The notes under the pieces were generated by a model. The model was not told where the DNA came from and did not search any database. It saw only the letters and a list, made by a program, of their open reading frames with translations. From the sequence record MZ311864.1: a stretch of DNA of 64,000 nucleotides. One strand, 5' to 3'. The position numbers and the translations under genes are program-made. Of the stretch, positions 3,574 through 58,140 are shown piece after piece (position 1 is the first letter of the stretch; the number at the start of each line of letters is the position of its first letter). This DNA comes from Escherichia phage vB_EcoM_LNA4.

Positions 3574-3575
3574 CA

Positions 3576-3597
3576 AAAGGGGCTTCGGCCCCTTCTA
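3576..3597 (+). terminator. GGGGC-UUCG-GCCCC stem-loop, weak terminator or RNA stability element
   Basis: Perfect 5-bp GC stem with UUCG loop after collagen-like gene; short T tract (ttct). Confidence 0.45.
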
Positions 3598-3608
3598 AAG
3601 GAGAACAA

Positions 3609-4253
3609 ATGGTAGTATATTCCTACACACCGATGATCAGGTCTTCTGACGGTAAATACCCAGTATATCTTACTGATTTCAGGGCAGACAACCCTAACGT
3701 CAGCATTGGTACTTGGGTTTACTCAGAGAACATTGCAGAGTTCGGATATTTTCCGGTGATCCCTGTGACACCGCCAACTGGTGATGTTGTCATGGAAGGA
3801 CCTCCTGAATTTAACGACCAAACCCAGCAATGGGAACAGACATGGACATCTCGTGATTTCTTACCTGAAGAAATTGCTGCGAATCTCGAATCTGCAAAGC
3901 AGAGTAAGAAAGCAGAGGCACAGAACGTCCTCTCCCGCGATGTTGATTTAGGTATTCCATACCCGGTTGGTAACGTTGAGTATAAAGTCAGAGTGAAAAG
4001 CTTCGACCTCGCAACCCTTCTTACAATCAAATCGGTGCTGGATTCAGATGGTGACCAAAGCTCTGAAGTATATCCGTTCAGATTCCTTGATGGATATAAA
4101 TCAGACTTTACACACGCTGAAATGAAAGACCTTGTGATTCAGGTTTCTCGTGCTCAGTATGGTTTAATGAAGTCTTACTGGGCGTATCTTGATCAGGTCG
4201 AGCAGGCAACTACTCTACAAAATATCCCTGCACTCCCAGATTCATTCCTGTAA
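3609..4253 (+). CDS. hypothetical structural protein
   Basis: 214 aa ORF with AAGGAG RBS, tightly packed in structural block. Confidence 0.55.
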   Translation: MVVYSYTPMIRSSDGKYPVYLTDFRADNPNVSIGTWVYSENIAEFGYFPVIPVTPPTGDVVMEGPPEFNDQTQQWEQTWTSRDFLPEEIAANLESAKQSKKAEAQNVLSRDVDLGIPYPVGNVEYKVRVKSFDLATLLTIKSVLDSDGDQSSEVYPFRFLDGYKSDFTHAEMKDLVIQVSRAQYGLMKSYWAYLDQVEQATTLQNIPALPDSFL

Positions 4254-9815: not shown

Positions 9816-10289
9816 ATGAATATCAGACCAACAACTGAAATCGACCTCGCAGGTCACAACTTTGTTATCACGCACTGGTCTCCTTCCAAGGTTATGAAAA
9901 ACCTTCCGAAGATCGGTCGTTATGTAGCAGTCCCTATGGCAACCATCTCTGGTTCCATGATGACTGGAGGCCAGAACCTATCTGACGCCCTCCCAACTGC
10001 TATTCTATACCTCTTTGAACAGATGGAGCAAGATGATATCGAAAAACTTTTCGCATTGATTCTTGAGGATGTATCCGTTGATGGTATGGCGGGTAAAGTA
10101 GATATTGACGCTCTGTTCCAAGATAAAATGTTAGACCTCATTAAGCTTGTTGCTAAAGTTCTGGAGATTAACTACGGCTGTTTTTTCACGAAAGACGGTT
10201 TCGCAGACCTTCAGGGACTTCTGGGACGCCTGGGACAGACCCATCAAGTGAATACGGTGGATCAGGCGACGGAAGTGGCAGCGGAGTAA
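9816..10289 (+). CDS. tail assembly chaperone (G-like, zero-frame product)
   Basis: 157 aa ORF just upstream of tape measure gene; contains slippery heptamer near 3' end. Confidence 0.6.
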   Translation: MNIRPTTEIDLAGHNFVITHWSPSKVMKNLPKIGRYVAVPMATISGSMMTGGQNLSDALPTAILYLFEQMEQDDIEKLFALILEDVSVDGMAGKVDIDALFQDKMLDLIKLVAKVLEINYGCFFTKDGFADLQGLLGRLGQTHQVNTVDQATEVAAE

Positions 10290-10567
10290 CACCGTCCAAA
10301 ATTTCGAAAGTCGTCCTGAGAGCTATGGAGTATGCAAAGAAAAATAGCTCACTGACTTGGTTCGATTACTTGTGGTGTCGTGCTCTGAAAAATTTCAAAG
10401 GGGAATCTTATATGTCCCTTGAACATGCGGATATGGCCTATCTGCTCAGGCTGAATGAATTTCTTGATGTGGAAGAGTTTGTCAACGATGTCCACGAGAG
10501 AGAGGAAGATAGTAAAGCAAAAGCTGCTCAAGCCGCTAACAAGCCGCGCCGTGGTAGAAGAGGTTAA
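10172..10567 (+). CDS. -1 frame extension of tail assembly chaperone (GT-like fusion product, about 250 aa)
   Basis: Frame is open 150 nt upstream of its first ATG (10325), overlapping the chaperone 3' end; ATG at 10325 lacks a good RBS. Confidence 0.5.
   Translation, partial: LRLFFHERRFRRPSGTSGTPGTDPSSEYGGSGDGSGSGVTPSKISKVVLRAMEYAKKNSSLTWFDYLWCRALKNFKGESYMSLEHADMAYLLRLNEFLDVEEFVNDVHEREEDSKAKAAQAANKPRRGRRG
10181..10187 (+). other. candidate -1 programmed ribosomal frameshift slippery site T_TTT_TTC
   Basis: X_XXY_YYZ heptamer in frame 0 of chaperone gene; -1 frame open from 10172 to 10567. Confidence 0.5.
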
Positions 10568-29098: not shown

Positions 29099-30802
29099 AT
29101 GTTTCCTATTCCAAGCCTGTTCCTGCTAATGGCGGGTGGTGGTACAACACCCCTACCTCCTGGCGGGGTGAAAAAGATCGCTTTCTCCAGAGAACAAACA
29201 ACTGGTGTAAAAAGGTCTATGGCTATTCTTCTAACAGACGGAAGACTATACACCCAAGGTGATAACGCGTGGGGTGAATGTGCAGACGGAACAACAAGCC
29301 CGTTCTACGACCACTGGAAACTCGCTGCAAGTAATGTAGCAGATGTTTTCGGTGTTGGGAAGGCTTTTGTAGTAAAATATAATAATGGTGGCTGGCAGTA
29401 TGCGGGGGACCAAGGACAATTTACAGGTGTCACCTCTAACATGATGGCGTGGACAAGTTTCCCATCCTCAATCACAGGGACTGTGAACCTTGCAAACCTC
29501 TCCAGTGTTATTGGTGGGGGTGGTAACACGTTGTGGTTGATGAACAATGGAACGCTGTATGGTAGCGGGTCCAATGCGAATGGGTGCCTTGGGTCAGGAA
29601 ACAGTAACTCAATCTCTATCCCAAGAACCATCAGCACCTCTTGTGTCAGGGCATACGGTCTACAGGCCTGTACTACATACCTCAACAACGTCGGTGTTCC
29701 TCGTGTCTGCGGTTCTCCATACGGGATCAATGGCTCGTTTGTTGCTATTATGAGTTATGCAAACGTAACGTTCCCAGGTGCCACAGGAACAATCTACGCA
29801 AAAGAGTGGATGTGTAACGAATCAAACACCATCGCCATTGCCTCCACCGGGGCATCAGACACAGATCACTATCTGTATACTCGTGGTATCACAACCAGTA
29901 ATGGTGCATACGAGAAAGTTGCCGGGTTTGGGCCTTTCACAACCTTCCGTGTGATCGAGGGCGGTCAGTCAAGATTCTTTATCGCTGATGATGTTTTATA
30001 TGCTCTTGGTGATTCACAGCGTACCCTTGGGCTTGGAGACACCACAACAGCGGTAACTGTGCCGACTGTTATCCCTGTGCCTACCGGGGCAGATTGGGAC
30101 CTTAGCAAGCTGACTTACGTGGCTGACATGAAAGGCGATAACCTGTCACAAGGTGGGACTATCGGGCACTGGATAGTTTATGATGGGAACCTATTCTACA
30201 CTGGGAGCGCAAAAGGATTCTTCGGGACCACAACCTCTGTCGGTAAGTTCACCAACGTTCCAGAGAACTCTTTCGAGGGTATCCGTGCCGACTCTATCAC
30301 AACAGGATCAATTGGCGTGGCGATTGTTGGTACTACGAAACAGCTTACGTGGTCTATTGATCCACCGGGGGCTGAAATCTATGACCTACAGTTTAGCTCA
30401 AGTCATCCAGAGTTTGCAACAATTGATGCGAATGGGCTTATGACCTTCGTTGCTGAGGGGGGTTTTGACATCACCATGACGGCGAAGACAGGGACAAGCG
30501 CAACAACCTTGACAGATACTTCAGGGGGTTATGCTTCAACACTTGGAATGGCTACTGATAGCCTTTCTGCGATGACTGTCGGTGAGACAAAACAGCTTGT
30601 TTATACGGTAACACCAGCGGGTGTTGAGAACCTTGACGGGTACTCTATCTCCTTCTCCAGTGAAGACCCAACGGTTGCGACAGTAAGCTCTACCGGGCTG
30701 ATCACAGCAGTTGCTGATGGTGGGACTCGTATCCATGCGACGGCAGCGGTCCAGACCGTAACAGCAGACGATAGCTCTTATCTGTCAGTGAACGCACCAT
30801 AA
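29099..30802 (+). CDS. RCC1-like repeat protein with two C-terminal Ig-like (Big_2-type) domains
   Basis: 567 aa; repeats like YTQGDNAWGECADG and LYGSGSNANGCLGSG; two similar Ig-like modules at C-terminus; AGGAGG RBS. Confidence 0.55.
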   Translation: MFPIPSLFLLMAGGGTTPLPPGGVKKIAFSREQTTGVKRSMAILLTDGRLYTQGDNAWGECADGTTSPFYDHWKLAASNVADVFGVGKAFVVKYNNGGWQYAGDQGQFTGVTSNMMAWTSFPSSITGTVNLANLSSVIGGGGNTLWLMNNGTLYGSGSNANGCLGSGNSNSISIPRTISTSCVRAYGLQACTTYLNNVGVPRVCGSPYGINGSFVAIMSYANVTFPGATGTIYAKEWMCNESNTIAIASTGASDTDHYLYTRGITTSNGAYEKVAGFGPFTTFRVIEGGQSRFFIADDVLYALGDSQRTLGLGDTTTAVTVPTVIPVPTGADWDLSKLTYVADMKGDNLSQGGTIGHWIVYDGNLFYTGSAKGFFGTTTSVGKFTNVPENSFEGIRADSITTGSIGVAIVGTTKQLTWSIDPPGAEIYDLQFSSSHPEFATIDANGLMTFVAEGGFDITMTAKTGTSATTLTDTSGGYASTLGMATDSLSAMTVGETKQLVYTVTPAGVENLDGYSISFSSEDPTVATVSSTGLITAVADGGTRIHATAAVQTVTADDSSYLSVNAP

Positions 30803-30836
30803 CAAAAAGGCTCCCAATCGGGAGCCTTTCTTTTTA
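30803..30836. terminator. bidirectional rho-independent terminator
   Basis: aaaaa-GGCTCCC-aatc-GGGAGCC-tttctttttat between converging + and - transcription units. Confidence 0.8.
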
Positions 30837-31265
30837 TACAGCGTTCTTTGCTTCGCCGTGTTGCCTGTGCCACTCTTCATGATGAATAGGGCATAGCCAC
30901 ATAACCTCTAAAGGTTTATCATAATCACAATGATGAGCCTGTACATCTTCACTTCCGCAAACCCCACAGGGCTGTTTTAATAGCTTGCCGTCACGGATTG
31001 CGTTACCTGTTTTTATATGCACAGATCTCTTCTTCGGATTCTTCTCAATATACTTCCGTTTTGCACGAGTCGCAGCCTCTTTCCCGATACCTTTAACGTA
31101 TCGCTCTTTCATTGCTTTACGCTCAGGATTTTGGTCCCTTACCCGATCACGCTCTCTGAGACAAACCCTACACGAAGCGGTTAAGCCATCTCTCGATGCT
31201 GCCCTTTTTCCAAACTCTTGCGGGGATTTAAGCTCCCCGCAATTGCTACAATGCTTATAAGTCAT
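30834..31265 (-). CDS. HNH endonuclease
   Basis: 143 aa; Cys pairs and HH motif (CGVCGS...AHHCDYD...WLCPIHHEEWH). Confidence 0.75.
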   Translation of the reverse strand: MTYKHCSNCGELKSPQEFGKRAASRDGLTASCRVCLRERDRVRDQNPERKAMKERYVKGIGKEAATRAKRKYIEKNPKKRSVHIKTGNAIRDGKLLKQPCGVCGSEDVQAHHCDYDKPLEVMWLCPIHHEEWHRQHGEAKNAV

Positions 31266-31270
31266 TGATT

Positions 31271-32407
31271 CTAAAAGGGAATATCGTCATCGAAGTCCAT
31301 TGGGGGAGTGTCGTCGAAGTCAACAGGCGGTGCCTGAACTGTACCGCTCAGAGGCTCCTGTACGGGCTGTGACGGCTTCTGACCTTCTTCCTGTGCAGTT
31401 GCACTAGCATAGGCATAGAACGTCGCTGCAAGGGCATACGCTTCGCGTGTTGCCTTCTCAAGTTCATCTGCGTCGATAGTCTTGCCTTTAACAGCAATTG
31501 TCGTTACAGCAAACTTAACCGCATTGCCAACTGTCTGGCCTACATCCTTACCTTCAACCTCTGACAGTTCTTTAATCAGCTTGGTTGTGACATCATGTAC
31601 CACCTTACCAGCAGCCTCTACATCACCTTTAAAGCCGGAAAGCTTCAGGTTAACGAGGGCATTCATGGCATGACCAGCAGACACACCGACAGGATCATAA
31701 GGTGTACGCTTACCTTTTCCCCCTGCTCCACCACCCTGACCAGCAGGGCCATAGGCCTTGAAGCTGTTGATGATGTTACCAGTTCCCAGATCAACGAATG
31801 CCGCCAGACGACCACCTACAGATACCTCTGCCAGTTGCTCATCAGAGAGAACTACACGACCCTCACCTTGTTTCTCATCGTTCACAACTGCAACGTTGCC
31901 TTCGATAGACAGGATTTCGCCGTAGATCTTAGCACCCTTTCCACCACCAACCTGTGCAGGAGCACTTGACTGCGGAGGTGCGGCATCTGCCGGGGCATCA
32001 ACCAGGATCTTGATGTCCTTCTTCTTACCCTGATAAGAGGTATTGGTTTTGCCGTCTTTCTCATAGGTCTGTTTCTGGACCGGGTAGATGGAGATCTCCG
32101 CACCCGGTAACAGGTCTTTATAGCTACCGTCAGCCTGCTTCACCTGGAACTGGTTTTCGTATTTCAGGTTCTTAACTTCACCTTCACCGAAAGACACAAA
32201 CTCATCAACGCCACCTGCGGTAAGCAGGATAGAGTAACGGTGAGTTGAGGAAATAGTTTTCCCCGCATTAGGACCCTTGTTGATGTGGGTAACCTTGGCA
32301 GAACCATCAGCGTTGATACGCTTGATGAATACACGCTTGATCACGCCTTTAGCTTTCAGTGCAACGGAATCATCAGCCGGGTTCACTACTTCAGTAATTA
32401 CGCTCAT
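31271..32407 (-). CDS. SSB-like replication protein with host-SSB-type acidic C-terminal tail
   Basis: ATG at 32407 with AAGGAG RBS; Gly-rich linker; C-terminus ...VDFDDTPPMDFDDDIPF. Confidence 0.6.
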   Translation of the reverse strand: MSVITEVVNPADDSVALKAKGVIKRVFIKRINADGSAKVTHINKGPNAGKTISSTHRYSILLTAGGVDEFVSFGEGEVKNLKYENQFQVKQADGSYKDLLPGAEISIYPVQKQTYEKDGKTNTSYQGKKKDIKILVDAPADAAPPQSSAPAQVGGGKGAKIYGEILSIEGNVAVVNDEKQGEGRVVLSDEQLAEVSVGGRLAAFVDLGTGNIINSFKAYGPAGQGGGAGGKGKRTPYDPVGVSAGHAMNALVNLKLSGFKGDVEAAGKVVHDVTTKLIKELSEVEGKDVGQTVGNAVKFAVTTIAVKGKTIDADELEKATREAYALAATFYAYASATAQEEGQKPSQPVQEPLSGTVQAPPVDFDDTPPMDFDDDIPF

Positions 32408-32420
32408 TCTCTCTCCTTTA

Positions 32421-32768
32421 TTACTTAGTTTCTTCAGTCTGGGTTTCAGCATTCACACCCAGAAGTCTATCAACAATCAGGTCTTCAACCTGGCTCAACA
32501 GGTTCATCGCGAAGGACGATGCACCGTTCAGTTGCAGCAGGTTGTTACGATGACCACGAACCCATGCTAAAGCCTCTTCAACAGTGCCGTACTGACCACT
32601 GTTGATAACTTTTAGCATTTCATCACGCATACGATCAGACCCGATGAATTGGCTCATCTGAGCGCCAGCGCTTGAAAGGAATACAACAGTTCCAAACTGA
32701 GCCTCATCGAGGTCAAGGAAGTGTAGTTGTTCAGGTTGTTTGTCGATAGGGGTTACTTCTTCAGTCAT
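32421..32768 (-). CDS. hypothetical protein
   Basis: ATG at 32768 with GGAGG RBS; acidic 115 aa. Confidence 0.5.
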   Translation of the reverse strand: MTEEVTPIDKQPEQLHFLDLDEAQFGTVVFLSSAGAQMSQFIGSDRMRDEMLKVINSGQYGTVEEALAWVRGHRNNLLQLNGASSFAMNLLSQVEDLIVDRLLGVNAETQTEETK

Positions 32769-40001: not shown

Positions 40002-40475
40002 TTAAATCCTCGCTTTGTTATTTACAATAGTGGAGATAACCGACTGATTAACTCCGTATAACCTTGCTAACGCTCTCGTTCCACGATCCCTTGAATACGG
40101 AACATATGCATCTCTGATCTCAGCCACTTGTAAATCTGTAAGCTTATGATGAGGATGCTCCTCATTCTTAACAGGCTTCAAAAGTCCGGTCTCTGAGGCA
40201 TGTTCCATATTCTCTTTTACGGTTGACCATTCGAGATTATCAACATGGTTGTTCTCTTTGTTACCGTCCTTGTGATTAACAAAGGGTTTGTCATCAGGGT
40301 TGGGAATATACTGCATTGCTACCAGTCTGTGAACAAGAAAGTTCCTAATCTTCCCATCTATAGTTGTATGAACCTTCATGTACCCATTTTTAAGACGGGT
40401 TTGTTTTATGACATTGCCCGTCTTTACCCTGGTAACAACCTTTCCGTCAACACTAACAACGAACAGGCTGTTCAT
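40002..40475 (-). CDS. HNH homing endonuclease (HNH_3-type)
   Basis: HRLVAMQYIPNPDDKPFVNHKDGNKENNHVDNLEWSTVKEN; C-terminal HTH-like region; AAGGAG RBS. Confidence 0.75.
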   Translation of the reverse strand: MNSLFVVSVDGKVVTRVKTGNVIKQTRLKNGYMKVHTTIDGKIRNFLVHRLVAMQYIPNPDDKPFVNHKDGNKENNHVDNLEWSTVKENMEHASETGLLKPVKNEEHPHHKLTDLQVAEIRDAYVPYSRDRGTRALARLYGVNQSVISTIVNNKARI

Positions 40476-40501: not shown

Positions 40502-43216
40502 TTAATGGCACTCGGCCCAGTTGCGGCCTGTTAAGTAAGCCCCAGTAATCATGACCGGAGAACCCATCATCTTAGCGGCTTTCTCGACACATTTCACAAC
40601 CATCTCACCAACAGGGCAATACTGGATCTTGATCTTGCCGTCTTCACCAAAGATACCTTCGTAAACGGTGTTGCCTTCAGCATCTTTGACCTTTTCCCCA
40701 TTCTCATCCTTGACAGCTTTTCTCCACTCGTGACCGTCGAATACACGGCCCTTTGCTTCCCACTCTGTGACAAAGGCGGTAGCCTCTTCAAGAGTATCGA
40801 ACTTCCATTTCTTCAGGTACTTTTTAGGGACCTGAAGCTGGTATTCATCGTGGTAGTAAATCAGGCGACGAACATCGTCATCATACCATCCACGCTTGAT
40901 CAGTTCCCAGTGCAGCAGGATACCAACCAAGTCGAACAGAGAAGCACCACCATTCTGCTGGTAAGCATTCAGAAGTGAGTGCTTGGAGCGGGTCCAGATT
41001 TTACGACCATCTAAACCAGGAATGTAACGTTTTCCGGTTGCTTCCCAGAAGTTTTCAAGCCACTCTTTACGACCTTTCAACCCAAAGTTACTATCCCAGA
41101 AAGCATCAATTACCGCCTGTGCTTTGTCAAGCGAGATGTTCAGCATTGCTGCAATCTTCGCTGCCTGAGCACCGTACATGATACCGTATGTTACACCCTT
41201 ACCACCGTTACGAGTAACGAGAGTTCCGGACGCTTTGGTGTACGCCTCGGCGTTTCGTGCGTGAGCATCTCCACTTTCCATGATGCGGAGATATTCACCG
41301 CCGTCAAATTGATATGCACCCCATGCGGCGATCATACCTTCCAGGTTGGAACCGTCAATACCTACCTGATAGTATTCATCGGTGACACCCCAAAGCCCTC
41401 GCATCTCTTTACCCAGCAACACCTTAGGATCAGGTTTAGGCATGTTTGCACAAATGGTGTGCTTACAGCGGCCTGTGTTCGTGATCCCAGAGAACCTTGC
41501 TGGAAGTTTACCATCAATCGCCAGGCGAGGGTGGTTCAACAATCCAGTGTCGTTCTTATCCTCGTCGATAGGGTCGAGAACAGAGCGACGGTTACGCAGT
41601 GACAGCCACTTAACAATCTGTTTAGCCAAGTGAACATCAATGCGTTCAAGGTTCGGACATAGCTTACCAAAGTTATCCTTCAACTGTGGTGAGGTAGGCA
41701 ACTGTCGTGCCTTACGTCTGAACTTCTTGAATACCTCAGCATAACCCTTATCAGAGGCATGACGCAAGTCAAATTTTCGCTCAGAGATATTAAATTTTTC
41801 ATCAGAGTTATTCAAGTGCTCAAGGATCAAAGACTTGTACTCAGATTCAGCAAGCTCTTCGATGTATTTACGAACTAGTTCATCCTGTTCCTCATCAGAA
41901 CGGGCTTTTTTGAACTGGTCCTTGGACACATCCTTCACACGCCACAGCGTAGGCTTCCAGCCTGCGTCCCTGATCAGGTATTTCTTGATGTCGTCCTGGT
42001 TAGAGATCTTCATCGGAACCATCAGGTCAGGCATCTTCCCGTTTCGCAAATCCTCTTTAGCCTTCTCCATCAGGTCAGGAGGCAACGGAACAAGGGTGTT
42101 TTCCTTGTTAAGTTGAGACCGGATGAAGTCTGCAAAGTGCATAGGGTCTTCAACACCATTTGCAATGCAGTAGCGCTCTCCCGCTGCACTCACTTCTCCG
42201 TTGGTCTTAAAGGCGGTCTTAGGTGGTCCTTTGAACTCCAAAGCTTCACGATTTACCGGATAACCCAACTTGAATTCTAGCCAGTTCCAGCCGTGGTGTG
42301 AGATGTTTCCTGCACCATCAAACGGGTTAGCTGGGAACTTTGGCTGTTGAGATTTTGTCATCTCTTTCATAGGAAGTAAAGGTTCAACCTCCTCTTCGAT
42401 CTCGTGCATCATAACATCAATGCGATCACGAAGTTTCTCAGCCTCATGCTTGTTGAACGGAACACCCTGAATCTCTTGCTCAATCATCAGGTAATCCGTC
42501 AGCATACGGCGACGAAGAGCGTTTTTCCAGTTAATCTGACGCATACCTTCGGGTTTATCCGTATACATAAACTGCTTATCATCAGGCCAACGAGCACCAG
42601 TGGATTCATCAATCAATGCTTTCCACGTCAGTTCGTTGATCAGAACGTCTTCCCACACACGGTTAACGTACTCCCAGAGTGGTTGGTTACGCCAGTCATC
42701 AATCTGAACTTTCTTGTTCGCTACACGATAACCCCATGCAAGTAAGCCATGCGGCCCCACACGGTCACGCTTCCCTGTCACAGGGTTCAGTACAGAATCA
42801 GGACAACCATTTGGTAACGGGCGGTCTGGGTACAGAACACGACTCATTGACAACGTATCGTACAGGTTGACCTGGGTGTCCCCGATAGTCCCCAGGCACT
42901 TAGGGTCTTTGAACATATCGTATTCAATGCCGGACAGCTTCTTCCAGAGGCGCAGGTCGTAACCAAAGAGGTTATGACACGCAATCCCACGGCAAGTTTT
43001 AAGGAACGCCTCAAGCTCGTCATAAGAGCGGATCGTGAGATTGGCTTCCGTCTTGCTTCGTGCGTATGTTACCGCACTTTCGTACTCTGGGTGTGCAGGA
43101 TCTAAAAACAGATTCCAGTTGTTAACACCATACTCCTTTAACAGGGTGCAGTGGTACTTCGTTACCTCTTCTAACAGGCCATCGGCCTCGTTATCGAGTA
43201 TAAATAAACCTTTTAT
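40502..43216 (-). CDS. DNA polymerase, family A, T7 gp5-like with 3'-5' exonuclease domain (non-canonical start)
   Basis: Motif A DGSNLE, motif B RNGGKGVTYGIMYG, motif C YHDEYQ; frame open upstream of first ATG (42916) and encodes ILDNEADGLLEEVTKYHC Exo I region after an AGGAGG RBS. Confidence 0.8.
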   Translation of the reverse strand: MKGLFILDNEADGLLEEVTKYHCTLLKEYGVNNWNLFLDPAHPEYESAVTYARSKTEANLTIRSYDELEAFLKTCRGIACHNLFGYDLRLWKKLSGIEYDMFKDPKCLGTIGDTQVNLYDTLSMSRVLYPDRPLPNGCPDSVLNPVTGKRDRVGPHGLLAWGYRVANKKVQIDDWRNQPLWEYVNRVWEDVLINELTWKALIDESTGARWPDDKQFMYTDKPEGMRQINWKNALRRRMLTDYLMIEQEIQGVPFNKHEAEKLRDRIDVMMHEIEEEVEPLLPMKEMTKSQQPKFPANPFDGAGNISHHGWNWLEFKLGYPVNREALEFKGPPKTAFKTNGEVSAAGERYCIANGVEDPMHFADFIRSQLNKENTLVPLPPDLMEKAKEDLRNGKMPDLMVPMKISNQDDIKKYLIRDAGWKPTLWRVKDVSKDQFKKARSDEEQDELVRKYIEELAESEYKSLILEHLNNSDEKFNISERKFDLRHASDKGYAEVFKKFRRKARQLPTSPQLKDNFGKLCPNLERIDVHLAKQIVKWLSLRNRRSVLDPIDEDKNDTGLLNHPRLAIDGKLPARFSGITNTGRCKHTICANMPKPDPKVLLGKEMRGLWGVTDEYYQVGIDGSNLEGMIAAWGAYQFDGGEYLRIMESGDAHARNAEAYTKASGTLVTRNGGKGVTYGIMYGAQAAKIAAMLNISLDKAQAVIDAFWDSNFGLKGRKEWLENFWEATGKRYIPGLDGRKIWTRSKHSLLNAYQQNGGASLFDLVGILLHWELIKRGWYDDDVRRLIYYHDEYQLQVPKKYLKKWKFDTLEEATAFVTEWEAKGRVFDGHEWRKAVKDENGEKVKDAEGNTVYEGIFGEDGKIKIQYCPVGEMVVKCVEKAAKMMGSPVMITGAYLTGRNWAECH

Positions 43217-43242: not shown

Positions 43243-43866
43243 CTATACTGTCGCAGCGTCTTGTCTCATTTTATAAGCAATGCCTTTTAATCTCGCAACA
43301 AGATCGGGATTGGCATAATCCTTCTCTTCGTATTCCTCAACCATCTCGGCCAGCAATTTAGATTTTGCTAGCAACCATGCTTTATGGGCCTCCAACGCAG
43401 TCGAAAATCTACCCAGTGTTTTGGAAGATATCTGTGCTCGATAAAGCCCCCTATCTAAAGAAACACCCATTGGCAATCCATTCTTACTTATGGAACAGTT
43501 AACCAATAAGGAATTTAGTTTTTTAGGGACAAAGACACAAGTATCTGGACCATAGACCTTGTTTCCCTCCACCAAGAGGTCTTTATCAAGGTCTAATCCT
43601 TCTCCGTTGAGCCATGCCTCGTGGCATGGTTGTAACTGGACCCACTTTTTAAAACGCGAAAATACTAACCACTCTTCACAGACATAGACATCGGCATATG
43701 TTTTCCTCCTGGTTTTGAATTTTTTAGAAATACCCCTTTCCAACATACTCCTCCAAAGAGTGTGGTACGGGCATCTCCACAAGGTTACCTTTTTTCCCTC
43801 TATTGTTACTGATTTGGTAACGGGATAGTCAGCATCGTTTATACCCATGCCACACTTATTGGTCAT
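43243..43866 (-). CDS. AP2-domain protein, putative homing endonuclease
   Basis: AP2-like segment GVSLDRGLYRAQISSKTLGRFSTALEAHKAW; lies between primase-helicase and polymerase genes. Confidence 0.5.
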   Translation of the reverse strand: MTNKCGMGINDADYPVTKSVTIEGKKVTLWRCPYHTLWRSMLERGISKKFKTRRKTYADVYVCEEWLVFSRFKKWVQLQPCHEAWLNGEGLDLDKDLLVEGNKVYGPDTCVFVPKKLNSLLVNCSISKNGLPMGVSLDRGLYRAQISSKTLGRFSTALEAHKAWLLAKSKLLAEMVEEYEEKDYANPDLVARLKGIAYKMRQDAATV

Positions 43867-43877
43867 AATAATCGTCC

Positions 43878-45893
43878 TTAGAACGGGGTATCATTCTCGA
43901 ATTCTGCGGGGTTAGGAAGCTGAACAGGAGAATCCATAACAGGCGCTGGCACGTTGACCTTGCCTACCGGAGTCTCAAGTTGCAGAGATTGAATCATACC
44001 TTCAGGGCGGAGCATAACCACCCCATCAAGTTTGAACATCCCGTCTTCCCATACCCAACCAGACGCATCAGTGAATTGTCCGTTTTCATCCATGATCATA
44101 GTGTCAGCAACACCAAGTTTTTTGTGTGGGCGGTTCTTCATTACAACCACACGCACACGTCCACGAGAACGGTCTGGCAGTTCTTCTGGTTCAACACCTA
44201 ATACAATCCAGGATAATTGCTCCAGTGCAGCAGAACCACGCAGGTCTTCTTTACGTACAGGATACCAGAAAGGCAACATGTTGCCGTCTTTGTCCTTCGG
44301 TAGCTGAAGTTCCTTACGCTTCATGTGGCTAATGCTGAGAATGAACACATCGTACTGCTTACAGAATGCCGCAAGCTCGGTCATGATGTTGTCCAGATCT
44401 CGACGTTCGTTATCCGACTTAAGGCCAGAGATAACCATGCTGAGGTGGTCAAGGATAATCCACTTACAACCATCCAGGAATACCATCTGCTTCAGCTTCT
44501 GAATCAACTGGTCCGTAGGGATAGAGCCGAAGTGATCAAAGATCTTGATCTTGTCTTCCTTAATCCATCGTTGGTGAATCTCCAGGTGCTGCTCTTCGGT
44601 CAGGAACTGCTCAGGGTCTGCCACGAAAGCTTTAGGGTCAACCTTCAACTCCTCAGCGTACAAGCTGTTTACAGATTCTTCCTCGTCCTCTTCCAGACGG
44701 ATGATCGCAACCTTTTCATGTTCAGTCCAACCATCAAGACGAGGGATGCTCATATCTCGAAGGTAGTTCACAATGGCATACTCGATCTTACGTGAGATTG
44801 TTGACTTACCACCACCAGAAGGGCCAGTTAGTGTCCACAACTCACCAGTACGAGGACCTTTTGTTAACTCATAAAGACGAGGCATACCAGGTAACGGGAC
44901 ACCATCTTTCTTCTTCTTGCGAAGGTTTTCGATGGTAATGTTGCTCAGGCTGATCAGTTTGTCAGGGACATAGCGATCTTCTGCCTTGGAGAACATGTTC
45001 CAGATCTCACGACCCTTACCCGCATCGTACATGTCACGAACGTCTTTAACCCCGGAAGGATCATTTCGTTCATTGGGGTAACGTGCCACAAAGATGTTGT
45101 CTGTCAGCAGGAATGCTGCCACATCGTCTGTTGCTTCTTTACCTTTCTTGACCTTACGTTCCTTTTCCAGAGCGGTTGCTTCATCGTTATCAAAACCGAG
45201 AACAACCTTCTCATAGCCACGAATGAACTTCTCGTTATTGGCAAAGGTATCTACTGCGTTGGCTGTGCCACAGTTTAATCCGACAAACGGTAATGTCGGA
45301 ACACCTGCAATCTCTTCACCGTTCTGAATAGAGGCGATACCTTTCAGAACGCTTGCAGCCCAATCCTTAACACCCTTCGGTGCATTAGGGCTTGCTTGCA
45401 GAGCTTTCACGAACTCAAAACCTGCCTGCCAACCAGCGGTAACATCCCCCTCGCCCTCTACAATGAAGATCTGTTTACGACCTGCGCCCATAGCGGCTTC
45501 GTGTTGACCGAAGAACTGTGAAGCGGCCTTAACAGTCCCCACAACAGAAAAGTGACCTTTCTTCTCTTTCGGCAGGGTCCAGTCACGTTTTTTATATCCA
45601 GTCAGCTTACCGTACTTGTCGTAATATGGCAAATAGGTGGCTGTGATCGTCACACCGTCACTTGGGGATACGGATGAACGGATCTTAAAATACTTTGCTG
45701 CGTCGAGAGAGAGGCTCATTTCAGGAACTGGCAGAATGCGGGTGCCATTGACTACAGATTCCAGGGTCTCTTCTTCACGTTGCTGATAACTCACTCTTCC
45801 TCCACGATTGCCTTTACTTCCAAAATTCTGCGCTTTCGGGTTCTCCTGTCCACCTTGTCGGTAAGCAGCCCAATCCGGACCATTTCCCATCAT
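43878..45893 (-). CDS. DNA primase/helicase (TOPRIM + DnaB-like, T7 gp4-like)
   Basis: TOPRIM IFIVEGEGD and GFDNDEA; Walker A TGPSGGGKST; Walker B WIILDHLS; C-terminal ...EFENDTPF. Confidence 0.85.
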   Translation of the reverse strand: MMGNGPDWAAYRQGGQENPKAQNFGSKGNRGGRVSYQQREEETLESVVNGTRILPVPEMSLSLDAAKYFKIRSSVSPSDGVTITATYLPYYDKYGKLTGYKKRDWTLPKEKKGHFSVVGTVKAASQFFGQHEAAMGAGRKQIFIVEGEGDVTAGWQAGFEFVKALQASPNAPKGVKDWAASVLKGIASIQNGEEIAGVPTLPFVGLNCGTANAVDTFANNEKFIRGYEKVVLGFDNDEATALEKERKVKKGKEATDDVAAFLLTDNIFVARYPNERNDPSGVKDVRDMYDAGKGREIWNMFSKAEDRYVPDKLISLSNITIENLRKKKKDGVPLPGMPRLYELTKGPRTGELWTLTGPSGGGKSTISRKIEYAIVNYLRDMSIPRLDGWTEHEKVAIIRLEEDEEESVNSLYAEELKVDPKAFVADPEQFLTEEQHLEIHQRWIKEDKIKIFDHFGSIPTDQLIQKLKQMVFLDGCKWIILDHLSMVISGLKSDNERRDLDNIMTELAAFCKQYDVFILSISHMKRKELQLPKDKDGNMLPFWYPVRKEDLRGSAALEQLSWIVLGVEPEELPDRSRGRVRVVVMKNRPHKKLGVADTMIMDENGQFTDASGWVWEDGMFKLDGVVMLRPEGMIQSLQLETPVGKVNVPAPVMDSPVQLPNPAEFENDTPF

Positions 45894-48788: not shown

Positions 48789-50096
48789 CTATTTGCCAGG
48801 GAAAGTTCTTTCGTAGAAGTCTACAATACGTTGGTCAACAATGATATCTTTTTCTTTGACCTTACGCAAGAGTCTTAAACCGTTTGCAGTCGTAGCACGG
48901 CTAAAGGCGACGTATGCCATACCGGGTGCGAATGCTCCATACCCAAAGTCTACATTAAGGAGCGGCAATGTCAAGCCCTGTGCCTTATGAATTGTCACCG
49001 CCCATCCTAAACGGATAGGGAGTGCTCGATATTCACCAATGGTGATCTTCTCAAGCTCTTCGGTGATAGTCCCATCAGTATTACGGACCTTGATCGGGTT
49101 GTACTCAACGTTCTCCCACACATGCGGTTCAACATCAACAACTTTACCACACTCAAGGCGCACCTTAACACTCTCTTTTCCAAGCTCAATCACCTCACCG
49201 CGCGAGCCGTTAACATACTCTGGCTCTTCAAACCCCTTCGGGTCGTTCACGGTGATCATTACCTTGGCACCCTCCTTCAGATATAACTCCTCCGGGACAG
49301 GTTTTTGGGTGAAATCGCCAGTCTTTTTCGCAGAATAAAGCACAGGAAGTCCCGGAATTTCTTCAAAGCGCTTCTTGTTTACCTTATCCGCAGCAGCGTT
49401 GGTGGATGTGATCGTAATCGCATCTGGGATTGCCTGACCACCACGGTAACAGACACCGTTAAGTTCCCTCACAATATCAGGAATACGCTGTCCACGACGA
49501 AGACAGTTAAGCAACCCTGAGAAACGCGTGCTGTTCTGGCGATAAACCTTCTCAAGAATAACCGGGTAAGGGTTAAGCTCTTGCCACGTATCGGAGAAGC
49601 AACACAATTCCGTTGGGTGGAACTGGAAGTACATTTCCTTTTCCGCCTCTGTGAGGACAGGTGGGTTCTGGAAGAAGTCCCCAAACATGCAAATCTGCAA
49701 ACCACCGAAAGGTTTGTTTGGTTCTCTACGTGCAATACGGCACTTCATATCCATTTCCCAAAGCTTATCAGCACGAAACATACTGATCTCATCAATGATT
49801 ATGATCTTTAATGCTTTGCTTTTCAAAAGTTTTTTTACTTTAGGCTTTAATTCTTCCGCTTCTTTCTTTGTCGCAACACCCATTGATAATCTAAACGCAC
49901 GGTGAGCCGTCATACCATCAACGTTAATGGCAGCAGCCCCCGTAGGGGCTACAGTTAGAACGGAACCTGCGTAAAGAGATTGGATGGTCTTAATGGTGTA
50001 GCTTTTGCCACTACCTCCGGGACCCGTAACGAATACGTTGTCACCGGACATGATAGCACCAAGGGCTGCTTCAACGCCCACGCCAAAATCAGACAT
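48789..50096 (-). CDS. SF1 DNA helicase, Dda/RecD-like
   Basis: Walker A VTGPGGSGKS; Walker B IIIDEISM; GDFFQNPPV; motif VI TIHKAQGLT; ATG at 50096 with GGAGG RBS. Confidence 0.8.
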   Translation of the reverse strand: MSDFGVGVEAALGAIMSGDNVFVTGPGGSGKSYTIKTIQSLYAGSVLTVAPTGAAAINVDGMTAHRAFRLSMGVATKKEAEELKPKVKKLLKSKALKIIIIDEISMFRADKLWEMDMKCRIARREPNKPFGGLQICMFGDFFQNPPVLTEAEKEMYFQFHPTELCCFSDTWQELNPYPVILEKVYRQNSTRFSGLLNCLRRGQRIPDIVRELNGVCYRGGQAIPDAITITSTNAAADKVNKKRFEEIPGLPVLYSAKKTGDFTQKPVPEELYLKEGAKVMITVNDPKGFEEPEYVNGSRGEVIELGKESVKVRLECGKVVDVEPHVWENVEYNPIKVRNTDGTITEELEKITIGEYRALPIRLGWAVTIHKAQGLTLPLLNVDFGYGAFAPGMAYVAFSRATTANGLRLLRKVKEKDIIVDQRIVDFYERTFPGK

Positions 50097-51376
50097 CAAT
50101 CCTCCTTAGTTTCTTCTTCCAGGTAGATTTGTTCCAAGATTTCACCTGCTGCACCAATTACCAGAATATCTGGTGCGCCCACTGGCTTGTCCACACCCGT
50201 CAACACCTCATAACGACAGCAACGGCACTTCTGCTGGTTGTAGTCGTAAGGAACACTTACAACGTCAGCCGGGTTAACAGCTACCTCGATAAGGCTGTTA
50301 CCAACAAAGCCGCCTGCGTATTCCAGAGAGGCAATGTGCAGACCTTGGCTACAGGAGACACTTGGATTATCTTCAACCATGTTTCGTGGCATAGAAATAA
50401 TCTGGCCTTTGTAGTTTGGAACCTTCTTGGTGCGGGTATCGCGAGGACCATCAGCAGTGTTGGTGATCTTCTTGTACGCCTTAACGTCACCATTTTCAAG
50501 GATCTCAAGGTCGTTGTGCTGAATAAAATCATACAGCATCTTCACAGAGGCATAAGACGGGTTGTGCATCAGCTTCTGCATGAACTTCACATAACGCTCA
50601 TCGAAAGTATCATTGTTGATATCGTTGAGGATACGTTTTGCAAGAGTGGTCTCTTGCTTCTGCCCGTGCCAGTACAGAACACCATCCAATAGCTTCAGGT
50701 CTGGACCGAGATCAACGACCTTCTCTGCCTTCGCTTCCTTCCCTGCTTCGATCAGGGCGATAGCCCCATCAATGTCGCCCTCAATCAACAGCAGACCGAC
50801 ATCCGGGAAGATATCGTTGTCACGGTTAATCGTGTGCTGAGTACCATCAGGCATAGAGATGCAGACGTTACCGGGAGTCATGATGACCACAGGGTCTTTC
50901 TTCTCGGTGACCTCTTCGTCGAAATATGTTTTCGGTGCAGACTCTTCAACAACCACACTCACAGGGACCTTGTAAGGCTCCGGCAATAGTGTGACCGTTG
51001 CTTCGATATGCAGGTCGGTTACTTCGAAAGTGACTTCCCAGCGTTTTCCCTGCTTACCAAGATCCTTAACAACACCGTAGTTTACCCCCCGGTCACCCTG
51101 GGCGTGGTCAATAATCTTAGCATTCTTTTTGCCCTTTGCAAAGTCACGGGCCTCACCACGACTTCCGAAGAACATAGAAGACCGAGCAGGAACGGCTTCA
51201 GAGGTGAAGCTCATGTCAACTTCTGGGGGCTTAGAAGCCCCTTGACTATCTTTTGGTACAACCATCCAACGGCCTTCTGCCAGCACCGCTGGTGATACAC
51301 CACGGTCTACAACCTTCATACCGTTGAGGGATGCGTACTCACGCGCCTTACTGCGGGATTCAAAAAGATTACTCAT
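50096..51376 (-). CDS. rIIB: rIIB-like protein (tentative)
   Basis: 426 aa ORF translationally coupled (ATGA) downstream of the rIIA-like gene; assignment by synteny only. Confidence 0.4.
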   Translation of the reverse strand: MSNLFESRSKAREYASLNGMKVVDRGVSPAVLAEGRWMVVPKDSQGASKPPEVDMSFTSEAVPARSSMFFGSRGEARDFAKGKKNAKIIDHAQGDRGVNYGVVKDLGKQGKRWEVTFEVTDLHIEATVTLLPEPYKVPVSVVVEESAPKTYFDEEVTEKKDPVVIMTPGNVCISMPDGTQHTINRDNDIFPDVGLLLIEGDIDGAIALIEAGKEAKAEKVVDLGPDLKLLDGVLYWHGQKQETTLAKRILNDINNDTFDERYVKFMQKLMHNPSYASVKMLYDFIQHNDLEILENGDVKAYKKITNTADGPRDTRTKKVPNYKGQIISMPRNMVEDNPSVSCSQGLHIASLEYAGGFVGNSLIEVAVNPADVVSVPYDYNQQKCRCCRYEVLTGVDKPVGAPDILVIGAAGEILEQIYLEEETKED

Positions 51377-57149: not shown

Positions 57150-57637
57150 TTTTTCTCCGGAAGGATATAAACTGTTACATCACAATCCCAGAAAACAGAT
57201 TTGATCATCGCTTCAATGACGTTCCAGTCACCACCTGCAAGACCAGCACCGATTTTCGGGAAGCCGATTTTGTAGTCAGCCATAGAGCCGTCTGTAAAGC
57301 TCTGTAAGGCCTTCTTCATCTGATCCAACGAATCATACAGGGCATTGTAATCGAGGTCACGTAGGCCCTGTTTACGGCGATTATAACCATATTGCGAATA
57401 CAGATTAAATCCTGCGAGAGATCCGTCCTTCATGAAGGCCACAGTGAAGGTCCCAAGTTTGGCTTTATCACCTTTCTCGGTCTTCAGATCCGCAGCGTAC
57501 ATTTTAGGGAACGCTTCTTTGATCAGTGGAGCTATACCGCTACCCATTGTGCAATAACAATTGCAGCCATGCGCAAAAACATTAACCTCACCAGATTTCA
57601 CAGCCTCAATTAGGTCGCCTACTTTATACTTAAGCAT
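57146..57637 (-). CDS. macrodomain protein, TARG1/DarG-like ADP-ribosyl hydrolase family
   Basis: NVFAHGCNCYCTMGSGIAPLIKEAFP and KIGFPKIGAGLAGGDWNVIEAMIKSVF resemble TARG1-type macrodomain core motifs; GGAGGA RBS. Confidence 0.6.
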   Translation of the reverse strand: MLKYKVGDLIEAVKSGEVNVFAHGCNCYCTMGSGIAPLIKEAFPKMYAADLKTEKGDKAKLGTFTVAFMKDGSLAGFNLYSQYGYNRRKQGLRDLDYNALYDSLDQMKKALQSFTDGSMADYKIGFPKIGAGLAGGDWNVIEAMIKSVFWDCDVTVYILPEKK

Positions 57638-58140
57638 CAGTCCTCCACTATAATATCATGAATCGTTTTTACGTATGCTTGATAACATTCACTCGCTTCC
57701 TCAGCGGAGTCGAATGTTCCAAGGTGGATCTTACTATACACAGCATGGTATCTTAACCTAGTCCACCTTTTGTCTACGAATACACCACGGAATCCTGTTT
57801 GGTTCTTCTTTCCTCTGCTGTAATTGTAGACGTTTACAAACTTCTGGACATCCCTGAGGTTAGTAATACGATTGTTATCTTTTTGTCTGTCCTTGTGGTC
57901 AATAAAATAAGTGGGCCACACGCCGTAATAAAAAGCCCAGGCCACTCTGTGTGCCAAGAAGTAAAAACCTTTACCTTCAATCTTAACACCAAGCCTTACG
58001 TAACCGTCTTTTCTTTTTGTGCCTGCAACCTTTCCAAAATGACGACGAGCGAGAGGATTGATACACGTAAACAAACCTGTCTCAGGGTCATATGAGAAGG
58101 AAGATTTAAGCGCCTGTAATGCCTCTTCACTCTCCTTCAT
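57637..58140 (-). CDS. HNH endonuclease with AP2 domain
   Basis: LAHRVAWAFYYGVWPTYFIDHKDRQKDNNRITNL plus AP2-like GFRGVFVDKRWTRLRYHAVYSKIHLGTFDSAEEA. Confidence 0.75.
   Translation of the reverse strand: MKESEEALQALKSSFSYDPETGLFTCINPLARRHFGKVAGTKRKDGYVRLGVKIEGKGFYFLAHRVAWAFYYGVWPTYFIDHKDRQKDNNRITNLRDVQKFVNVYNYSRGKKNQTGFRGVFVDKRWTRLRYHAVYSKIHLGTFDSAEEASECYQAYVKTIHDIIVED

What the first reader, a model, noticed from the sequence alone, without database searches (positions are those of the whole stretch)
31271..32407. SSB-like protein ends in the exact C-terminal tip of E. coli SSB
The protein ends ...VDFDDTPPMDFDDDIPF. The last 11 residues (PPMDFDDDIPF) match the C-terminal tip of E. coli SSB, which is the docking site for many host replication and repair proteins. 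The N-terminal domain does not resemble bacterial SSB, so the phage protein may hijack or titrate host SSB-interacting proteins. The tail also suggests an enterobacterial host.
Basis: partly seen in the sequence, partly recalled or inferred. Interest (0 to 1): 0.65.

Follow-up and report, generated by a model that had tools for sequence, protein, structure and literature searches.

The report
Phage SSB carrying the host SSB tip
This gene most likely encodes the phage's own single-stranded-DNA-binding protein, built on an unusual fold but ending in the same docking peptide as the host protein; that tail is common among phages of these bacteria, and a 2026 preprint already describes this protein family.

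Summary
The minus-strand ORF 31271-32407 encodes a 378-aa protein whose last 11 residues (PPMDFDDDIPF) are identical to the end of E. coli SSB.

The gene closes the replication operon of a Seunavirus (Vequintavirinae) that is 95% identical at this gene to Cronobacter phage GAP31. GAP31 has no other annotated SSB.

The protein is a full-length ortholog (37% identity, E 4e-56) of Bas52_0087. An April 2026 preprint describes Bas52_0087 as an SSB-like protein with a C-tip that triggers the DRT10 defence system in a pathway modulated by the host exonuclease SbcB.

The tip is not special to this family. A tip-plus-cap query matched 680 phage records, on at least four unrelated SSB scaffolds. ssDNA binding and partner hijacking remain untested.

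Side finding: GAP31 and about 17% of the family carry a conserved 15-aa cap after the tip. In this window an HNH endonuclease gene occupies that position instead.

Verdict: real, ordinary in kind, a new member of a known family.

The parts
31271..32407 (-). CDS of the SSB-like protein (378 aa plus TAG stop); PHROG 4477; ortholog of GAP31_233 and Bas52_0087
32413..32418 (-). Ribosome-binding site AAGGAG, 5 nt upstream of ATG 32407; supports the 378-aa start over the ATG at 32452
   Evidence: all homologs start at this Met
32000..32407 (-). Residues 1-136: first OB-like beta domain, basic (pI 9.4, net +6), pLDDT above 90; the likely main ssDNA-binding domain (inferred)
31742..31936 (-). Residues 158-222: second small OB-type barrel (three strands, a short helix, two strands). 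Invariant K160, G163, R200, F216 and Y219. Absent from the shorter Stephanstirmvirinae homolog
31394..31696 (-). Residues 238-338: four-helix domain. D238 and Y331 correspond to the DRT10 escape positions D252 and Y351 of Bas52_0087, which the preprint places at a putative oligomerisation interface
31307..31393 (-). Residues 339-367: disordered, poorly conserved acidic linker (pLDDT below 50 over residues 339-363; conservation 0.38). It contains a partial copy of the tip motif (PPVDFDD)
31274..31306 (-). Residues 368-378, PPMDFDDDIPF: identical to the C-terminal tip of E. coli SSB and terminal in this phage
30834..31265 (-). HNH endonuclease ORF (143 aa, phrog_2340) starting 5 nt after the SSB-like stop codon. 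Absent from GAP31 and 4MG. It occupies the position where GAP31 encodes a 15-aa extension of the SSB-like protein
30801..30826 (-). Terminator-like hairpin GGCTCCC-gatt-GGGAGCC plus a T run, shared with the convergent tail gene. In relatives without the HNH gene it follows the SSB-like gene directly

Best explanation
The gene most likely encodes the phage's own single-stranded-DNA-binding protein, made with the replication genes.

**Proposed mechanism**
- The basic N-terminal OB fold, helped by a second small OB fold, coats ssDNA at phage replication and recombination intermediates.
- The helical domain mediates self-association.
- The flexible acidic linker presents the terminal PPMDFDDDIPF peptide. 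This peptide is identical to the host SSB tip, so it should dock into the same pockets of host SSB-partner proteins (ExoI/SbcB, RecQ, PriA, the chi subunit and others). Phage replisome proteins may bind it too.
- Partners would thereby be recruited to phage ssDNA, in competition with host SSB.

**Shown here:** the sequence, family-wide conservation of the tip, the predicted OB-OB-helical-linker-tip architecture, the genomic position, and orthology to the DRT10 trigger Bas52_0087.

**Inferred:** ssDNA binding, oligomerisation and tip-partner binding.
For: **Tip and architecture**
- The tip is identical to E. coli SSB over 11 residues.
- The tip is the most conserved segment of the family, 0.94 against 0.38 for the adjacent linker. 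This is the same IDL-plus-tip logic as bacterial SSB.
- The AF2 model (mean pLDDT 81) has two beta domains, a four-helix domain and a disordered tail.
- OB1 is basic, pI 9.4.

**Genomic context**
- The gene is last in the minus-strand operon that also holds the PolA-type polymerase, DnaB-type primase-helicase and PIF1-type helicase.
- The complete annotation of GAP31 (95% nt identity at this gene) lists no SSB anywhere. The rV5 genome paper lists none either (PMC3606486).

**Family**
- The homolog in Stephanstirmvirinae belongs to the same PHROG 4477 and is named SSB by RefSeq.
- The window protein is a full-length ortholog of Bas52_0087 (37% identity, E 4e-56), with the escape positions D252 and Y351 conserved.
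- The preprint reports that Bas52_0087 is required to trigger DRT10, in a pathway modulated by SbcB/ExoI, a known SSB-tip partner.
- The same tip ends annotated SSBs on at least three other scaffolds in phages.
Against: - No member of the family has been shown to bind ssDNA or any tip partner.
- OB2 is acidic, pI 4.4.
- In the closest relative GAP31, in PVP-SE1 and in about 17% of family clusters, the tip is followed by 15 more residues. A free C-terminal Phe is therefore not needed for phage viability. By textbook structural knowledge, an internal IPF should not fit the SSB-Ct pockets.
- The phage has its own polymerase and helicase, so it is unclear which host partners it would need.
Confidence: 0.7

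Rival explanations
1. One reading: a decoy. The protein's main job is to soak up or redirect host SSB-partner proteins through the mimicked tip (for example to disarm ExoI, RecQ or RecJ, or to block host replication), not to serve as the replicative SSB.
For: - The tip is identical to the host's.
Against: - The protein has two predicted OB folds and lies in the replication operon.
- It is the only SSB candidate in the GAP31 genome.
- The preprint reports that expressing Bas52_0087 alone does not affect E. coli viability. Strong titration of essential SSB partners should be harmful.
- The tip is capped in GAP31 and PVP-SE1.
- The same tip is standard on ordinary phage and prophage SSBs.
Confidence: 0.1
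2. A recombination mediator or strand-annealing factor rather than a general SSB. It would be an OB fold plus helical domain protein, loosely like RecO, that loads or assists recombinases on ssDNA and uses the tip to reach SSB-partner sites.
For: - The genome has a DprA-like gene and no recognised recombinase partner.
- In other phages the same tail sits on SSBs encoded next to Erf- or Sak4-type annealing proteins.
Against: - The RecO matches have rmsd of 8-9 Angstrom and score no better than plain SSB or RPA OB folds.
- RecO is itself a binder of the SSB tip, not a bearer of it (established knowledge).
- No other SSB is available in the genome.
Confidence: 0.1
3. A virion or tail-associated protein, as one source's name ('Tail fiber protein', SalP219) and the neighbouring tail genes might suggest.
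For: - UniRef's name for P0047.
- The gene abuts the tail-fibre cluster.
Against: - It is on the opposite strand from the tail genes and convergent with them, separated by a terminator.
- It has OB folds and an SSB tail.
- The name is an unsupported automatic label.
Confidence: 0.02

Closest known systems
Bas52_0087 (QXV84166.1) of Escherichia phage RudolfGeigy (Bas52, Vequintavirus); bioRxiv 10.64898/2026.04.29.721553
   Same: - Full-length ortholog: 37% identity, E 4e-56, residues 1-378 against 1-408.
- Same position after the DNA polymerase block.
- Same predicted layout of two OB folds, a helical part and a disordered tail ending FDDDIPF.
- The escape positions D252 and Y351 are conserved as D238 and Y331.
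   Different: - It belongs to a different genus (Seunavirus, not Vequintavirus) and is 63% divergent.
- The window protein's tip matches E. coli SSB over 11 residues (PPMDFDDDIPF), where Bas52 has ...AQYSFDDDIPF.
- DRT10 triggering has been tested only for Bas52.
E. coli SSB (PF00436; PDB 1eqq, 1kaw)
   Same: - Same modular logic: OB-fold DNA-binding part, low-complexity disordered linker and acidic tip.
- The last 11 residues are identical.
   Different: - There is no sequence homology outside the tip.
- It has two OB folds plus a four-helix domain per chain, not one OB fold.
- Oligomeric state is unknown.
T7 gp2.5 and DUF669-type phage SSBs
   Same: - Phage SSBs with a non-PF00436 OB fold and an acidic C-terminal tail ending in Phe that recruits replisome partners (established knowledge for gp2.5; summarised).
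- A DUF669/phrog_9002 SSB from a Salmonella contig carries the very same PPMDFDDDIPF tail.
   Different: - No sequence or PHROG relationship to the body of the window protein.
- The gp2.5 tail is not the host tip.
Stephanstirmvirinae SSB (Mt1B1_P17 gp116, phi92 gp156)
   Same: - Same PHROG 4477 (E 5e-97).
- Homologous OB1 and helical domain, and the same tail.
- RefSeq names gp116 a single-stranded DNA-binding protein.
   Different: - It lacks the second OB fold (310 aa).
- It carries the 15-aa cap after the tip and a related HNH gene downstream.

Membership tests
Bacterial/canonical SSB family (Pfam PF00436) | Sequence match to the SSB OB-domain profile | tested here: not met
   Pfam gives no family at E <= 1 and NCBIfam none. 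The PDB sequence search returns only noise. tblastn of E. coli SSB aligns only the tip.
Bacterial/canonical SSB family (Pfam PF00436) | OB fold able to bind ssDNA | tested here: inconclusive
Bacterial/canonical SSB family (Pfam PF00436) | Disordered linker followed by an acidic C-terminal tip ending D-D-D-I-P-F with a free carboxyl end | tested here: met
   Residues 339-363 have pLDDT below 50. The protein ends PPMDFDDDIPF followed by a stop.
Bacterial/canonical SSB family (Pfam PF00436) | Homotetramer (or dimer of two-OB chains) giving four OB folds | not testable with these tools
   Only single-chain prediction is available. The preprint suggests an oligomerisation interface in the helical domain.
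PHROG 4477 / Bas52_0087 family (Vequintavirinae SSB-like protein) | Full-length sequence homology | tested here: met
   phrog_4477 at E 5e-145 over residues 1-378. BLASTP against Bas52_0087 gives E 4e-56 end to end. There are 118 homolog clusters on contigs of up to about 152 kb, many around 140-150 kb.
PHROG 4477 / Bas52_0087 family (Vequintavirinae SSB-like protein) | Two OB folds, a C-terminal disordered region and an FDDDIPF tip | tested here: met
   AF2 model; tail statistics.
PHROG 4477 / Bas52_0087 family (Vequintavirinae SSB-like protein) | Conserved residues at the DRT10 escape positions (D252, Y351 of Bas52_0087) | tested here: met
   They align with D238 and Y331 of the window protein. 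The D of the YDP motif is nearly invariant in the family.
PHROG 4477 / Bas52_0087 family (Vequintavirinae SSB-like protein) | Triggers DRT10 (UG17) during infection | not testable with these tools
   Experimental property, reported only for Bas52.
T7 gp2.5-like / DUF669 SSBs | Sequence or fold match to gp2.5/DUF669 | tested here: not met

The most novel reading that the evidence does not exclude
**What the data show**
- Phage SSB tails come in two interconvertible forms: an exposed host-type tip (...DDDIPF-COOH) and the same tip capped by a conserved 15-residue peptide (A-P-[VI]-G-L-[QP]-[YF]-x4-[ILM]-[HYF]-x-[ILF]).
- Both forms occur in near-identical phages: 4MG and this window are exposed, GAP31 is capped.
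- The capped form occurs on at least four unrelated SSB scaffolds.
- Capped ssb genes are present in at least 193 of 5426 complete E. coli genomes; the one locus inspected is in a P22-like recombination module.

**The novel reading**
- The cap is a functional switch. It would hide the free Phe carboxylate from host SSB-partner proteins or from defence systems that monitor phage SSBs (the DRT10/SbcB axis), or it would redirect the tail to another partner.
- A lineage of HNH homing endonucleases that always lodges at the 3' end of such SSB genes helps to swap the forms. In this window it sits where the cap would be.
Probability: 0.2. Interest if true: 0.6.

Novelty: new member of a known kind. 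Interest (0 to 1): 0.33.

Why it matters
**What the result does**
- It assigns a function to a conserved 'hypothetical protein' (GAP31_233, PVP-SE1 gp39, PHROG 4477). This fills the missing SSB slot in the replication machinery of Vequintavirinae, and through a shorter homolog also Stephanstirmvirinae. Both groups are widely used in therapy and biocontrol.
- It links this Seunavirus gene to a defence trigger (DRT10) described for a distant ortholog. That suggests Seunaviruses may be sensed by the same system.
- It shows that the host SSB tip is a portable module, grafted onto several unrelated OB scaffolds in phages.

**Caveats**
- A host-type tip on a phage SSB is expected, not surprising.
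- The specific family has already been described.

**What is potentially new**
- The capped form of the tip and the SSB-associated HNH lineage are the only parts I could not find in the literature.
- The gene in this window does not itself carry the cap.

Tried and rejected
- **Sequence searches of the body.** Pfam, NCBIfam and PDB sequence searches gave no informative hit.
- **Recent transfer of the tip from host ssb.** Only the last 36 nt align to E. coli ssb genes, at 89-92% identity. That is too short and too codon-constrained to support transfer.
- **The 15-aa extension as a by-product of homing-endonuclease insertion.** The idea came from Bas49, where an endonuclease gene overlaps the extension. 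I rejected it for three reasons:
  - Kashira, L011, GAP31, PVP-SE1, g341c and a Vibrio phage have the cap with no endonuclease gene. ChuuTotoro, L021, L040 and this window have the endonuclease without the cap.
  - The g341c cap contains no ATG.
  - The cap is always 15 codons, with only 42-79% nt identity but a conserved residue pattern.
- **The cap folding back on the protein.** The AF2 model of the capped member P0016 leaves the whole tail below pLDDT 50, so it is uninformative.
- **Short-peptide searches.** The 40-aa query found one capped 55-aa ORF. It is the tail end of a DUF669-type SSB ORF on a Salmonella contig.
- **Fold libraries.** Foldseek against the AlphaFold database was unavailable. 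Foldseek against BFVD found only family members plus weak SSB, LEF-3 and DUF3127 hits.
- **Other papers.** The DARNA paper does not mention this phage group, and the Hna paper contains none of the C-terminal-tail terms I searched for.
- **Salmonella phage 40.** Its 'SSB' annotation is a frameshifted fragment named after the tail only.

Full report
**1. Observation**

The window holds a minus-strand ORF, 31271..32452. AAGGAG lies 5 nt upstream, and the preceding gene stops at 32421-32423. Every homolog begins at this Met. The 378-aa product ends ...VDFDDTPPMDFDDDIPF, followed by TAG at 31271-31273.

E. coli SSB (PDB 1eqq_A) ends ...PSNEPPMDFDDDIPF, so the last 11 residues are identical. tblastn of E. 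coli SSB against the whole window aligns only this tail. It is also the only ORF end in six frames with such a motif.

In a 64-sequence family alignment the last eight residues are 94% conserved, with D371, P377 and F378 invariant. The linker before the tip is only 38% conserved.

**2. What the phage and the gene are**

At this gene the DNA is 95% identical to Cronobacter phage GAP31 (Vequintavirinae, Seunavirus). It is 92.5% identical to Enterobacter phage EC152 and 84% to Escherichia phage 4MG. In all of these the gene is annotated 'hypothetical protein'.

It is the last gene of a long minus-strand block, convergent with the tail-fibre genes. That block also holds:
- a family A DNA polymerase (40502-42916);
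- a DnaB-type primase-helicase (43878-45893);
- a PIF1-type helicase (48789-50099);
- the rIIA/rIIB genes and an RNA ligase.

Pfam, NCBIfam and PDB sequence searches find nothing for the protein. PHROGs places it full-length in phrog_4477, 'unknown function'.

A search of the large protein collection found 118 clusters of 375-425 aa, on contigs of up to about 152 kb. tblastn found it in 222 phage records, mostly from Escherichia, Klebsiella, Cronobacter, Salmonella, Pectobacterium, Enterobacter, Erwinia and Serratia phages.

**3. Structure**

AlphaFold2 with the family alignment (mean pLDDT 81) predicts five parts:
- residues 1-136: an all-beta domain, pLDDT above 90;
- residues 158-219: a small barrel with OB topology (three strands, a short helix, two strands);
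- residues 239-337: a bundle of four helices;
- residues 339-363: a disordered stretch;
- the tip.

OB1 is basic (pI 9.4). The tail is acidic.

The fold evidence is generic OB-fold similarity. It does not establish membership of a specific family.

**4. Is it the phage's SSB?**

The complete RefSeq annotation of GAP31 has 295 features. It lists a polymerase, primase-helicase, helicase, ligases, exonucleases, a DprA-like protein and endonuclease VII, but no SSB. The rV5 genome paper likewise names replication genes without any SSB (PMC3606486).

A shorter homolog in Stephanstirmvirinae (Mt1B1_P17 gp116) has OB1, the helical domain and the tail. It belongs to the same phrog_4477, and RefSeq names it a single-stranded DNA-binding protein.

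Taken together, the position, the fold, the SSB-like modular layout and the lack of an alternative make 'the phage's own SSB' the best-supported reading. ssDNA binding is inferred, not shown.

**5. Prior description**

A preprint of April 2026 (bioRxiv 10.64898/2026.04.29.721553) reports the following:
- Escape mutants of BASEL phage Bas52 against the DRT10 (UG17) reverse-transcriptase defence map to Bas52_0087 (D252V, Y351C).
- The tail carries FDDDIPF, like the E. coli SSB C-tip.
- The host exonuclease SbcB/ExoI, a known tip partner, modulates the system.
- Expressing the protein alone is neither toxic nor sufficient to trigger DRT10.

I located Bas52 (phage RudolfGeigy, MZ501102) and its gene. 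The window protein aligns with it end to end: 37% identity, E 4e-56. D252 aligns with D238 and Y351 with Y331. The window gene is thus a Seunavirus ortholog of a protein family already described as SSB-like with a host-type tip. It is equally untested.

**6. How special is the tip?**

Not very. tblastn with a 26-residue tip-plus-cap peptide hits 680 phage records. The features under the matches are SSBs of many kinds:
- canonical PF00436 SSB (P22-like g341c);
- short divergent OB proteins of phrog_44 type (morffagbaw; phiEB49 gp26 looks similar but was not scanned against PHROGs);
- a DUF669/phrog_9002 SSB on a Salmonella contig;
- OB-fold proteins of Vibrio phages;
- this family.

The exact 11-mer also occurs in Vibrio phages and in records labelled Acinetobacter phage. 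It therefore points to gamma-proteobacterial hosts in general rather than to Enterobacteriaceae specifically. The host inference is better supported by the nearest phages.

At the DNA level only the last 36 nt resemble E. coli ssb genes, at 89-92% identity. That does not demonstrate recent capture.

**7. Mechanism and rivals**

*Best explanation (confidence 0.7).* The protein is an OB-fold SSB that coats phage ssDNA, self-associates through the helical domain, and presents a host-identical tip on a flexible acidic linker. The tip would recruit proteins of the SSB interactome to phage DNA, in competition with host SSB. It might also recruit phage replisome proteins, by analogy with the acidic Phe-terminated tail of T7 gp2.5 (established knowledge).

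*Pure decoy (0.1).* Four points argue against it:
- the OB folds;
- the operon position;
- the absence of any other SSB;
- the lack of toxicity of the ortholog.

*Virion protein (0.02).* It rests on one automatic name.

**8. An unexpected complication: the capped tip and the HNH gene**

*Cap in the family.* Twenty of the 118 family clusters continue for 15-16 residues after ...IPF, with a conserved peptide such as APIGLPYGRNFIHCI or APVGLQYARHAIYAL. GAP31, the closest relative, is one of them.

*Three alleles at one site.* Between the Phe codon and TAA-ATAAGAAAGGCTCCC, GAP31 has exactly 45 extra in-frame nucleotides. 4MG has none. The window has TAG, 5 nt, and then a 143-codon HNH endonuclease ORF (30834-31265, phrog_2340, E 6e-42) before the same terminator.

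*The HNH lineage.* This HNH protein is:
- 70% identical to the endonuclease downstream of the SSB of Mt1B1_P17 (Stephanstirmvirinae);
- 52% identical to an uncalled ORF after the SSB-like gene of Serratia phage ChuuTotoro;
- about 39% identical to the endonucleases after the SSBs of morffagbaw and phiEB49 (Drexlerviridae).

An HNH lineage therefore appears to specialise in the 3' end of SSB genes with this tail.

*Cap and endonuclease are independent.* All four combinations occur among the 25 loci surveyed.

*The cap is conserved as a peptide.* It is always 15 codons. Its nucleotide identity between scaffolds is only 42-79%, but its residue pattern is conserved, and it appears on canonical SSB, phrog_44-type, DUF669-type and phrog_4477 scaffolds. 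Capped ssb genes are present in at least 193 of 5426 complete E. coli genomes. The one locus I inspected is in a P22-like recombination module.

*Open questions.*
- AlphaFold leaves the cap disordered.
- No paper in the held library contains the junction sequence.
- I could not determine what the cap does.
- By textbook knowledge of SSB-Ct complexes, which grip the free carboxylate of the last Phe, the cap should block canonical partner binding.

This bears on the finding in one way. The exposed tip in this window is one of two natural states, and its closest relative lives with the other.

**9. Verdict**

This is a new member (a Seunavirus ortholog) of a recently described family of non-canonical phage SSB-like proteins. 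Its host-type C-terminal tip is a common, portable feature of phage SSBs. Interest is modest. The capped-tip and HNH observation is the only potentially new element, and it lies beside the finding rather than within it.

Noticed in passing
window 30834-31265 (-); compare L001 (GAP31) 10150-10330, L019 (4MG) 3560-3760: An HNH endonuclease ORF (phrog_2340) starts 5 nt after the SSB-like stop codon and is absent from GAP31 and 4MG. It is 70% identical to the endonuclease downstream of the SSB of Stephanstirmvirinae phage Mt1B1_P17. It is also related to endonucleases placed after the SSB genes of ChuuTotoro, morffagbaw and phiEB49. This looks like a homing-endonuclease lineage specialised in the 3' end of SSB genes.
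   Followed up: partly
L001 (GAP31) about 10176-10224; L009, L011, L013-L017, L020, L025, L039, L042: A conserved, exactly 15-codon extension (A-P-[VI]-G-L-[QP]-[YF]-x4-[ILM]-[HYF]-x-[ILF]) follows the DDDIPF tip in several groups. These are GAP31, PVP-SE1, about 17% of this family, and SSBs on three other scaffolds. Capped ssb genes also occur in at least 193 of 5426 complete E. coli genomes; the one locus inspected is in a P22-like recombination module. Its function is unknown, it is not explained by endonuclease insertion, and no paper in the held library contains its junction sequence.
   Followed up: partly
window 40002-40475 (-), 43243-43866 (-), 57637-58140 (-): Three further HNH endonuclease ORFs (phrog_59, phrog_953, phrog_99) lie in window segments with no GAP31 counterpart. 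One is just downstream of the DNA polymerase gene, one lies between the polymerase and the primase-helicase, and one is further along the early region. The replication module of this phage is unusually rich in strain-specific endonuclease genes.
   Followed up: partly
window 31307-31327 (-), residues 360-366: The linker holds a partial duplicate of the tip motif (PPVDFDD) just before PPMDFDDDIPF. Similar tandem acidic motifs occur in many homologs, for example APAMDFDEPPMDFDDDIPF.
   Followed up: no
L018 1-803 (Bas52 DNA polymerase, flag j2): The DNA polymerase gene of Bas52 is annotated as joined from two pieces, implying an intervening sequence. In the window the polymerase ORF is 804 aa, against 904 aa annotated in GAP31, and an HNH ORF follows it.
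   Followed up: no
phage records MG065658, MG065659, MG065655 and others: Sixteen records named 'Campylobacter phage' carry copies of this gene that score like those of E. coli Vequintaviruses (37.6-37.9% identity to the window protein). The host labels are probably wrong or reflect mixed lysates.
   Followed up: no
P0047 (UniRef A0A AU7PI71) and L005 (Salmonella phage 40, KR296694): There are misleading names in public records. One family member is called 'Tail fiber protein'. In a frameshifted record, fragments of this gene are called 'terminase large subunit' and 'single-stranded DNA-binding protein'.
   Followed up: yes
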